A stretch of DNA of 62,777 bases from an uncultured Planctomycetales bacterium (GTDB taxonomy: Bacteria > Omnitrophota > Gorgyraeia > Gygaellales > Profunditerraquicolaceae): the NCBI GenBank assembly GCA_964487475.1, contig CAZAPM010000003.1, forward strand, positions 1 through 62,777, in the 5' to 3' direction. Position numbers: made by a program. This document shows positions 36,001-39,000 of this stretch, piece after piece. Numbering within the stretch: the first letter of the stretch is position 1; the number at the start of each line of letters is the position of its first letter.

Positions 36001-39000
36001 TACCGTCGACCACGGTCTTGCCCGGAGCCGGCGCCAGGCCCTCAAGCACCTCCCGCGTCATCACCGGCACATGGAATCTAATCGCTTCATCCATAAGCAT
36101 CATAGCTCTATGATCTTCTCCGCGATCTCTTCGAAGGAGGGTTTAGAAGATCTGTAGAACGCTTCCCATTTTTCGCTGGACCAGATTTCGATACGGTTGG
36201 ATACCCCTACCACCATCACGTCGCGCTTGATATCGGCGTACTCCTTGAGGTACTGCGGAAGGAGTATCCTTCCCTGCGCGTCCGGCACGATCTCCATCGC
36301 CCCGGAGAAGAACAAACGGTTGAAAGTCCTTGCCTGCTGCTTGGTGAAGGACATGTTCTTGAACTTCGCTTCCTGGGTGCGCCACTCCTCCTCGCCGAAC
36401 ATGAAGAGGCAGGCGTCGAGGCCCCGGGTGACGAAAAAACGCTCCACGAAATGCGCCTTGGCGGTTTCGCGGAACTTCGCCGGGAGGATCAAACGGCCTT
36501 TGCGGTCTATTCCATGGGAAAATTCACCGTAAAACATGTGAAATGACTTCCCTCCACTTTACTCCACTATGCTCCACTTGTAGTTCAAGTATAACAAAAG
36601 GGACCTTCTTGTCAAGCGGAAAAAATGCGCAAACTCAATGAAAACAATGAGTAGTGTATAGTGGAGGAAAAACCACAAGGGGTTGTGTACCGGGGATAAA
36701 AAATACCCCGGGAGGGAAGATCCCGGGGTTCAGGAAACTGATTTCAGGGAAAAACGGCTAACGCAATGCGATACGGCAGCGGGAAACGTCCTTCGAGATC
36801 TGTGCGCGAAGAGAGTCCCGGCCGGAGAACGTCCGGTCATTGCGCAGCTTGCGGATGAACTGCACTTCGATATCCTCTCCGTAGAGGCGTCCGCGGAACG
36901 CAAGCAGATATACTTCGATCCGGCGCCTCCCGGAGGAACCGGCCAGCGTCGGACGGGTGCCGATGTAACAGGCGCCGCGGTAGCGCCGCGCGCCGCGTCT
37001 TACCCACACCGCATAGATCCCGTCGGGAGGAACCACTTCGTGGTGCGGGTCCAGGTTCGCCGTCGGGAAACCCAGCGTTCGCCCGACGGTATCCCCTTTG
37101 ATCACCGTGCCCAGCACGGAGACCGGCCTTCCCAGCAGGGCGCGGGCCGCGGAAAGCGCGCCACGGGAGATGAGCGCGCGGATACGCGTACTGCTGATGC
37201 GAGTTCCTTGACGGGAAACGATCGGCACGGAACGCACCCTAAATCCCAGGCGCCTGCCCTCCCGCTCCAGGGTCCTGACCGTACCGCGGCCGGACGCGCC
37301 GAAACGGAAATCCTCTCCCACGCAGACTACGGACACCTTGAGCCTGCGCACCAGTACCCGACGGATAAAACGCTCGGGAGAAAGCACGGAGAACGCGCGG
37401 GTAAAACGCAGCACATGCACGTGCGCGATGCCCGCCTCCTTGAGCAGCGCCACGCGATGGGATAAAGAATACACGCTGGCCTCGGACTGGGGATGCGGCC
37501 AGAAGGTCACCGCGACCGCGGTCCCCCGGATCGCTTTCGCCTGCGCCAGCGCGGCACGCAGCACCGCGCGATGCCCCCGGTGCACACCGTCGAAAACCCC
37601 CAGCGCCGCCACTACGGGTGCGTCCGGATTCACCGCAACCCCTCCTCGACCCGGGCCATCACCCGCCGGATCACTTCCGGCATCCTTCCCGGCACGGTAC
37701 AGCCGCTGGCCGCCTTGTGCCCTCCCCCTCCGAATGCGCGCGCCACGGCGCTGACATCGACGTCCCCCTGCGAGCGGAAATTGACCCGCACCGCCGGCGG
37801 AGTTCCCGCCCGGGGCCGCAAGAGCATCACCACCTTCGCCTTCTCGATGGAACGCATCAGCGCCATGACCTGATCGCTCATATCGCTGCCCCGACCTTTA
37901 TCGGGCGGAAGCGCCAGCCAGACACATTTACCCTCGCAGGAGCGGCGGATGCGCGTGAGCATCCCTCCCAGGGAAACCACGTCCTCGAAGGAAAGCCGCT
38001 CGTAGATGCGGCGGTACGTTTCGTACATATCGATGCCGTGCGCCAGAAGTTCCGCGACGATATGATGCGTGCGCGCGGAAGTATTGCGGTAACGGAAGGA
38101 GCCCGTATCGGTCATGATCCCCACATAGATCGCCTCCGCGGCCGGCCGGTCGACGGGTACTCCCAAAGCCTCGAACAATTCATAGACCATCTCGGCGGCG
38201 CACGAAGCGTGCGGATCGACCCAATTGATATCCCCGAACTCCGGGTTGCCGGCGTGGTGGTCGATATTTATGGTGCACCTGGCTTGAGCGGCCAGCGCAG
38301 AGACCTTGCCGTAACGCCCGGCATCCGCGCAATCGACGGAGATGAAACATTCCGCCCGGGGAGGACGGGAAAGCTCCCGAAGCACTTTGGCCGATGAGGC
38401 AAAAGGCAGGAACGCGCACTCCGGCGGGACGGGATCCTCGTTGACCACCGTCACCGTCTTGCCCAGGCGGCGCAGGAGACTGCGCAACGCCAATTCCGAT
38501 CCCACGGCATCCCCTTCCAGGTTGCGGTGAGAAGTGATCAGGAAAGTGTCATACGCGCGCAGCGCCTTAAGCAGCTTCGCCGGGACCGTCTTTTTCCGCA
38601 ACGCCTTTTCTCTTTTCATCCTTCTCCTTGACCGAATCGATGATCTCCTGGATCTTGACGCTGTATTCCGTGGAATGGTCCTCCCGGAAAAGCAGCTCCG
38701 GGGCGAACTTGAGGTTCACCCGCTCGGCGACCAGCTTGCGGATGAATCCCTGCGCCGACTCCAGCGCCTCCTTGGTCTTCTCCAGGTCCTTTTCTTTTCC
38801 CAAGACGCTGTAAAAGATCTTGGCATGCCGGAAATCCTTGGAAAGCTCGACCCGCACGATGGTCACGAACCCCAAACGGGGGTCCTTCATCTCGTCATGC
38901 AGGATACTGCTCACTTCTTTCTGGATCGCATGTACCACCTTATCGTATCTCATCTTGTTCTTCTCCGTATACTGCGCGCGGCCAGCCTGGCCGCCAGCGA

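What a model noticed while it worked through the whole genome (the two positions that open the first line are those of the whole stretch)
36758..38953. tRNA elbow left unmodified: truB deleted in place, no T54, Gm18 or m7G46 enzymes, anticodon-loop set intact
nrnA overlaps ribF where relatives have nrnA-truB-ribF; TrmFO/TrmA, SpoU-family and TrmB enzymes are also absent, while MnmAEG, Tgt/QueAH, TilS, TsaBCDE, MiaA, TadA and TrmD are kept. The tRNA T/D-loop elbow is predicted to carry no psi55, T54 or Gm18 in a 59% GC, 1.9-Mb cell. New: near-universal psi55 synthase lost in a non-endosymbiont lineage, the same clade whose protein-free RNase P reads that elbow.
Evidence so far: TruB_N in 29/29 other-family genomes of the class, 0/2 own; 6/27 family, 16/41 order; G136 synteny nrnA-truB-ribF; TrmFO 0/26; SpoU 1/15 family; no TrmA/TrmB row.
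(Added by a program. Inside this text positions count along the whole contig: contig position 1 is position 1 of the stretch shown here. "Call 12" and the like, gene names such as g00115 and contig names such as C1 are that model's own, and its searches are not shown. The text may have been shortened before it was handed on; [...] marks where a part breaks off. The agent that wrote the report below was given it as the finding of a first reader that could run no searches.)

Follow-up and report, generated by a model that had tools for sequence, protein, structure and literature searches.

The report
TruB loss frees tRNA position 55
This bacterium and about nine in ten sampled genomes of its family lack the near-universal enzyme TruB, so their tRNAs are predicted to lack pseudouridine 55; in those genomes about one in nine scored tRNA genes has C instead of U at that site, which likely makes the family a natural test of why that U is otherwise almost fixed.

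Summary
TruB is missing from this Omnitrophota genome (94.6% complete) and from 107 of 120 family genomes, but present in 172 of 183 genomes outside the family.

- 'Deleted in place': all 12 TruB-bearing family members checked share the same nrnA-ribF junction; their truB sits elsewhere.
- 'Elbow unmodified': DusB and TruD are kept. TrmB is missing order-wide and TrmFO from 5 of 5 TruB-bearing relatives, so these were not lost with truB.
- RNase P link: RnpA absence and the shortened RNase P RNA also occur in TruB-bearing relatives.

New: tRNA position 55 tracks the loss. Non-U55 genes are 202 of 1,777 in TruB-less family genomes, over many isotypes, against 4 of 219 (all tRNA-Phe) in TruB-bearing ones. 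A position-56 control and GC content show no such split. TruB-less genomes of three other families barely show it.

The T-loop is predicted to be unmodified; nothing was measured. In the papers read, psi55/TruB loss is named only for reduced Mollicutes and Riesia. The scan's earlier notes did not hold this finding.

The parts
36758..37633 (-). ribF, riboflavin kinase/FAD synthetase (291 aa)
   Evidence: TIGR00083 237.5 bits, cut-off 184
37630..37633 (-). 4-nt overlap of the nrnA stop and the ribF start: the ancestral truB site, already empty in TruB-bearing family members
   Evidence: sequence; gene order in 80 relatives' regions; bridged by contigs of two other studies
37630..38619 (-). nrnA-like DHH phosphoesterase (329 aa)
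   Evidence: NF053633 E 1.2e-32, below cut-off; orthologue sits upstream of truB in other families
38567..38953 (-). rbfA (128 aa)
   Evidence: TIGR00082 103.7 bits, cut-off 51
38950..40269 (-). tRNA nucleotidyltransferase-family gene (context)
   Evidence: best hit NF041569, E 3e-93, below cut-off
44341..44415 (-). tRNA-Pro(CGG), canonical U54-U55-C56 loop; a would-be TruB substrate
   Evidence: ARAGORN
12545..13477 (-). RluD-like pseudouridine synthase with S4-like N-terminus, one of two RluA-family genes (open-frame coordinates)
   Evidence: TIGR00005 271.7 bits
52744..53733 (-). trmD, kept anticodon-loop enzyme (open-frame coordinates)
   Evidence: TIGR00088 over cut-off
54242..56383 (-). 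queA and tgt, kept queuosine enzymes (open-frame coordinates)
   Evidence: TIGR00113 and TIGR00430 over cut-off
57554..58096 (-). putative queH
   Evidence: recalled motif only; no NCBIfam hit

Best explanation
This genome and most of its family lack truB, so their tRNA T-loops are predicted to carry no pseudouridine 55, and the loss likely loosened the constraint on U55, letting C55 spread into many tRNA genes. Shown: truB is absent; it lies between nrnA and ribF in other families, but elsewhere (mostly between rfaD and lysS) in the 13 family members that keep it; those members are scattered on the tree; C55 is concentrated in TruB-less family genomes. Inferred: truB moved in the family ancestor and was then lost many times, or was lost and regained among relatives. 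With no TrmA/TrmFO or TrmI either, the T-loop would carry no modification at all, while DusB would still modify the D-loop. From general tRNA structure (recalled): C keeps the O2 atom that G18 contacts, so C55 is tolerated once the pseudouridine benefit is gone, whereas purines are not, except as an A18-G55 swap.
For: TruB 0/1 here, 13/120 in the family, 37/151 in the order; 172/183 outside the family and 74/77 in other orders of the class. Junction without truB in 12/12 TruB-bearing family genomes; truB present there in 8/8 TruB-bearing genomes of other families. Second site next to rfaD in 10 of 13, three other sites in the rest. All 13 family TruBs fall in one group with family f4 (bootstrap 86). 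tRNA pattern counts: TruB-less family 202 non-U55 against 1,575 U55 (96/108 genomes; 65 with two or more); TruB-bearing family 4 against 215 (all Phe; 0/13 with two or more); other TruB-bearing order genomes 2 against 336. Position-56 control: one isotype, 7/13 against 62/108 genomes. No GC effect (rho -0.08, 55 genomes). Branch-disjoint pairs: 8 higher in the TruB-less member, 3 ties, 0 lower. RluA-family copy number is mostly 2 with or without TruB; Pus10 absent.
Against: No modification was measured. 89% of scored tRNA genes in TruB-less family genomes, and 41 of 43 here, still have U55. The five TruB-less genomes of f2, f3 and f9 show only one C55 gene (Phe) among about 93 scored, so the effect is not repeated in those losses. 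Without tRNA-Phe the pair test drops to 5 higher, 6 ties, 0 lower (read by hand). C55 occurs at low level in TruB-bearing genomes: 11 tRNA-like genes in 8 of 182 genomes outside the order (read by hand; no denominator search there). Twelve TruB-less family genomes have no C55 gene. The species tree has weak deep supports, so the Dollo count of 22 losses is an upper-leaning figure. The pattern scores only tRNAs with one common D-arm type (20 of 43 here).
Confidence: 0.7

Rival explanations
1. Another synthase (TruD at C13:17900-19033, or the 208-aa RluA-family protein at C6:38012-38635) took over psi55, so the elbow is still pseudouridylated.
For: Both genes are intact open frames with the expected catalytic motifs. 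Most tRNAs keep U55. TruB-less f2 and f3 show no C55.
Against: RluA-family copy number does not rise where TruB is missing. C cannot be pseudouridylated, yet C55 rises exactly where TruB is missing. TruD and RluA recognise other sites in characterised organisms (recalled; NCBIfam labels). TruD distribution among relatives was not tested.
Confidence: 0.12
2. C55 and truB loss are both by-products of a family-wide loosening of tRNA elbow quality control; C55 came first (tRNA-Phe) and the correlation reflects shared ancestry rather than release by the loss.
For: Phe C55 is present in 4 of 13 TruB-bearing family genomes. The C55 rise is not seen in TruB-less f2 and f3. Kin are not independent, and the non-Phe pair test is only 5 of 5 informative pairs.
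Against: TruB-bearing members are scattered across the tree, yet have 0 non-Phe C55 genes of 219 against at least 101 listed in TruB-less ones. Position 56 is not loosened.
Confidence: 0.13
3. One reading: a protein-free RNase P that reads the elbow drove or permitted the loss of elbow modifications.
For: The truB losses found in this order are nested inside the RnpA-less clade. rpmH abuts yidD with no rnpA here. No HARP. The RNase P RNA lacks P13/P14.
Against: 37 order genomes and 20 genomes of 10 other families lack RnpA but keep TruB. The short RNA occurs in TruB-bearing G045, G053, G069, G070 and G037. PMC4919913 (passages) says RNase P measures distance and handles tRNAs despite differences in modification.
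Confidence: 0.05
4. The absence is an assembly gap.
For: 36 contigs, 94.6% complete; a few TruB-less calls in relatives may be gaps (for example G023, whose ribF contig is 1.2 kb).
Against: 107 of 120 family genomes lack it while ribF is found in 117 of 120. In this genome the ribF, rfaD, lysS, thyX and ttcA neighbourhoods are assembled and hold no truB.
Confidence: 0.02

Closest known systems
Loss of tRNA-body modifications in Ca. Riesia pediculicola (cited in PMC13602947 and PMC10965804, passages; the original PMC3539174 was not held)
   Same: psi55 enzyme missing while anticodon-loop enzymes are kept
   Different: Here 0.8-2.7 Mb draft genomes of a large environmental family. DusB, TruD and TruA are kept, TruB-bearing relatives are interspersed, and a U55-to-C55 shift is seen.
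TruB loss in Mycoplasma genitalium, M. pneumoniae and hemoplasmas (PMC4014445, passages)
   Same: truB lost in more than one lineage of a reduced-genome group; no TrmA or TrmH
   Different: TrmB is among the most persistent enzymes in Mollicutes but missing order-wide here. Mollicutes all keep the RNase P protein; this order has no detectable RnpA. The passages read report no position-55 change.
E. coli delta-trmA delta-truB double mutant (PMC11214086, abstract and passages)
   Same: T-loop lacking both m5U54 and psi55
   Different: The laboratory mutant is outcompeted and under-aminoacylated; here the state is inferred to be long-standing across more than 100 species.
A18-G55 tRNA variants (covariation recalled; seen)
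   Same: non-U at position 55
   Different: G55 comes with A at the G18 position and occurs in TruB-bearing genomes; C55 keeps G18-G19 and is enriched in TruB-less family genomes.

Membership tests
Reductive loss of tRNA-body modification (Riesia/Mollicutes type) | TruB absent | tested here: met
Reductive loss of tRNA-body modification (Riesia/Mollicutes type) | m5U54, Gm18, m7G46, m1A58 and s4U8 enzymes absent | tested here: met
   ThiI only weak partial hits, with one unassigned ThiI-like PP-loop protein
Reductive loss of tRNA-body modification (Riesia/Mollicutes type) | All body modifications lost (Riesia-like end state) | tested here: not met
   DusB over cut-off; TruD present
Reductive loss of tRNA-body modification (Riesia/Mollicutes type) | Anticodon-loop enzymes kept | tested here: met
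   13 families over cut-off; TsaE and QueH by motif only
Reductive loss of tRNA-body modification (Riesia/Mollicutes type) | Strongly reduced genome of an obligate endosymbiont or parasite | tested here: not met
   1.87 Mb, 59% GC; held by wastewater, biogas and sludge metagenomes; epibiotic lifestyle proposed for the group (PMC10066038 passages)
Reductive loss of tRNA-body modification (Riesia/Mollicutes type) | psi55 shown absent from tRNA | not testable with these tools
   no chemical mapping possible; no RNA holder listed
In-place deletion from the rbfA-nrnA-truB-ribF cluster | Closest TruB-bearing relatives carry truB at this site | tested here: not met
   0 of 12 family genomes
RNase P without RnpA | RNase P RNA present; RnpA and HARP undetectable; gene slot empty | tested here: met
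   an unrelated protein cofactor is not excluded
RNase P without RnpA | Co-occurs specifically with TruB loss | tested here: not met

The most novel reading that the evidence does not exclude
A family of more than 100 species translates with a chemically bare T-loop, and C55 is not drift but a selected, genome-encoded stand-in for pseudouridine 55 that stabilises the elbow of particular tRNAs (Phe, Val, Met, Lys, Arg) once TruB is gone. Its persistence in 38% GC genomes is compatible with this.
Probability: 0.2. Interest if true: 0.8.

Novelty: new variant of a known kind. Interest (0 to 1): 0.6.

Why it matters
TruB is conserved almost everywhere although its deletion has only subtle effects (PMC11214086, passages). 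A 2026 review names only two Mycoplasma species and Riesia as lacking psi55 (PMC13602947, passage). Here a large family mixes TruB-bearing and TruB-less species, and the target base changes where the enzyme is gone. That suggests U55 is held nearly fixed by the value of its pseudouridylation or of TruB binding, not only by the fold of the loop. It gives a direct test of U55, C55 and psi55 versions of the same tRNA. The absence of T54, Gm18 and m7G46 enzymes is ordinary by comparison and not tied to the loss.

Tried and rejected
1) In-place deletion as the loss event: rejected.
2) Co-loss of TrmB/TrmFO/SpoU with truB: rejected. PF02390 gave 82/151 matches, but all partial (best 61 bits, many inside giant ORFs; two tested are far below the TrmB cut-off). 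TrmFO 0/5. The one PF05958 hit in 5 relatives is RlmD-like.
3) RNase P architecture as a correlate: rejected. The RNA could not be located in 5 of 9 genomes fetched, and 3 requested stretches did not exist.
4) GC pressure as the cause of C55: rejected (GC taken from the ribF region, 67 family genomes).
5) General T-loop decay: position 56 shows only a compensated A19-U56 pair in tRNA-Ile2. Positions 54 and 58 were not tested in relatives.
7) No RNA holder listed, so editing of C55 could not be examined.
8) Literature searches found no report of TruB or RnpA loss in Omnitrophota, or of C55 with TruB loss. Two Omnitrophota papers have no 'truB', 'pseudouridine' or 'RNase P' in their main text; their supplements were not read and may list these genes.
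9) G023 was dropped from the species tree (one marker); G125 has no ribF locus and is not in it.

Full report
Setting. The window is the start of contig C3 of G000 (1,873,554 bases, 36 contigs, 59.2% GC, 94.64% complete, 0.39% contaminated). Records labelled Candidatus Omnitrophota carry the same rfaD-truB-lysS arrangement as the family's TruB-bearing members, and the genome has a frame of 16,838 residues, so the phylum is Omnitrophota. The family name Profunditerraquicolaceae is only my guess from family size; no call gives it.

Observation. rbfA, nrnA and ribF are at the stated coordinates, with a 4-nt nrnA/ribF overlap. Contigs from two other studies bridge the junction. TruB_N finds nothing in G000 while ringing in 14 of 14 controls. 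A profile from 30 relatives' TruB finds no fragment in six frames. TruB is in 13 of 120 family genomes and 37 of 151 order genomes; ribF is in 117 of 120. In a phylum sample it is in 174 of 201: 172 of 183 outside the family and 74 of 77 in other orders of the class. The loss is real and concentrated in this family, with further absences in f2 (0/3), f3 (0/1) and f9 (0/1).

History. I fetched the ribF region of 80 of the 145 relatives with a ribF hit. truB lies directly before ribF in 8 of 8 TruB-bearing genomes of other families. It is absent from that site in 12 of 12 TruB-bearing family genomes. In 10 of the 13 it lies just downstream of rfaD, mostly before lysS; G045, G050 and G130 each have it somewhere else. 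All 13 proteins fall in one group with family f4 (bootstrap 86, 49 sequences), so they come from within the order. On an 11-gene tree the family is one clade and its TruB-bearing members are scattered; strict loss-only counting gives 22 losses, with weak deep supports. So the junction in the window records a move of truB, not its loss. Repeated loss and loss-then-regain among relatives cannot be separated here.

Other enzymes. Absent from G000: TrmA/RlmD family, TrmFO, SpoU family, TrmB, TrmI, Pus10 and canonical ThiI. No full-length TrmB appears in any of 151 order genomes. TrmFO is absent from 5 of 5 TruB-bearing relatives. SpoU is in 31 of 151, and the four hits tested score best as RlmB. 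These gaps are therefore not tied to truB. Present: DusB (over cut-off), TruD (over the Pfam cut-off, under the NCBIfam one), TruA, two RluA-family genes, a TtcA-like gene, and the anticodon-loop set. The T-loop is predicted to be unmodified; the D-loop is not.

RNase P. rpmH abuts yidD with no rnpA. A profile of 14 RnpA proteins from the phylum finds nothing (best E 0.4), and HARP is absent. A type A RNA (179 bits) lacks P13/P14. RnpA is missing from all 151 order genomes and from ten other families of the class whose 20 genomes all keep TruB. The short RNA is in TruB-bearing G045, G053, G069, G070 and G037, while three other f4 genomes keep P13/P14. Neither trait follows TruB status. The losses are nested in the RnpA-less clade, so a permissive role is not excluded.

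Position 55. Of 43 tRNA genes here, 40 read UUC at 54-56, two read UCC (Val-UAC, Arg-UCG) and one reads UUU (Ile2, with A19). Contigs of runs from three studies cover the Val gene with no variant listed at that base. One pattern for a common D-arm class was run over the same 151 genomes with position 55 as non-U, with canonical UUC, and with position 56 as non-C; the reversed-pattern control gave 0. Counts:
- TruB-less family: 202 non-U55 against 1,575 U55; 96 of 108 genomes, 65 with two or more.
- TruB-bearing family: 4 against 215, all tRNA-Phe; none with two.
- Other TruB-bearing order genomes: 2 against 336.
- Other TruB-less order genomes: 4 against 103.
Of the 150 listed rows (62 were not listed), 146 are C55 and 4 are G55 with A at 18. 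The C55 rows span Phe, Val, Met, Lys, Arg, Ile, Ile2, Thr, Asn and Ala (read by hand). Non-C56 matches are one isotype, apart from three non-tRNA rows, and are equally common with or without TruB (7/13 against 62/108). GC does not differ between the groups and does not predict C55. Eleven branch-disjoint pairs give 8 higher, 3 tied, 0 lower; without Phe, 5 higher and 6 tied. The P values treat kin as independent and overstate.

Against this reading. The five TruB-less genomes of f2, f3 and f9 have one C55 gene among about 93. C55 also occurs at a low background in TruB-bearing genomes outside the order (11 genes in 8 of 182). Most genes stay U55. The data therefore show partial release within this family, not a general rule.

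Mechanism. Shown: gene absence, relocation, scattered retention, and the C55 association. Inferred: no psi55; relaxed selection on U55; tolerance of C because it keeps the contact to G18 (G18-psi55 and G19-C56 contacts are named in PMC8051267, passages; the O2 argument is recalled). Drift and compensation cannot be told apart from these counts.

Comparison and novelty. psi55 loss is known from M. pneumoniae, M. genitalium and Riesia (PMC13602947, passage), and TruB loss also from hemoplasmas (PMC4014445, passages). Early loss of tRNA-body modifications is a known pattern in symbionts (PMC10965804, passage). This case works like that pattern but fails two defining features: not all body enzymes are lost, and the genome is not strongly reduced. 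Nine searches found no report for Omnitrophota or for C55; subscription papers and supplements were not searched. The scan's earlier notes held nothing on it. Verdict: new variant of a known kind, interest 0.6.

Noticed in passing
G000:C2:54582-54937 (L182): rnpA is missing between rpmH and yidD (stop and start overlap). RnpA is undetected in 151/151 order genomes and in ten other families of the class; no HARP here.
   Followed up: partly
G000:C7:14387-14720 (L046): RNase P RNA type A without P13/P14 and with an altered J11/12. Both short and full forms occur within family f4.
   Followed up: partly
G000:C7:49858-49934: tRNA-Ile2(CAU) has a compensated A19-U56 pair instead of G19-C56; seen in about half of the order's genomes regardless of TruB.
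   Followed up: partly
L134-L137 and rows: tRNA-Phe (and some Ile, Met, Thr) genes with G55 and A at the G18 position in several families.
   Followed up: no
G000 genome-wide: No SpoU-family gene at all, so no RlmB or TrmL either, and no RsuA/RluB-type motif among the two RluA-family hits: rRNA modification also looks thin.
   Followed up: no
G000:C6:77263-78252 (L180): 330-aa PP-loop protein weakly like ThiI, role unassigned; a possible sulfur-transfer enzyme for tRNA.
   Followed up: no
G000:C4:113491-114597 (L176): TsaC fused to a low-molecular-weight phosphotyrosine phosphatase domain.
   Followed up: no
G000:C15:3-50516: One open frame of 16,838 residues spans the whole contig; giant proteins are already described for Omnitrophota.
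   Followed up: no
window 45500-47791: Acetyl-CoA synthase-like gene (Wood-Ljungdahl pathway), judged by eye from the translation.
   Followed up: no
L146:1380-1487: Contigs of three runs (two studies) show 87 other letters in place of a 106-base stretch just upstream of tRNA-Val(UAC): a strain difference or a local assembly problem.
   Followed up: no
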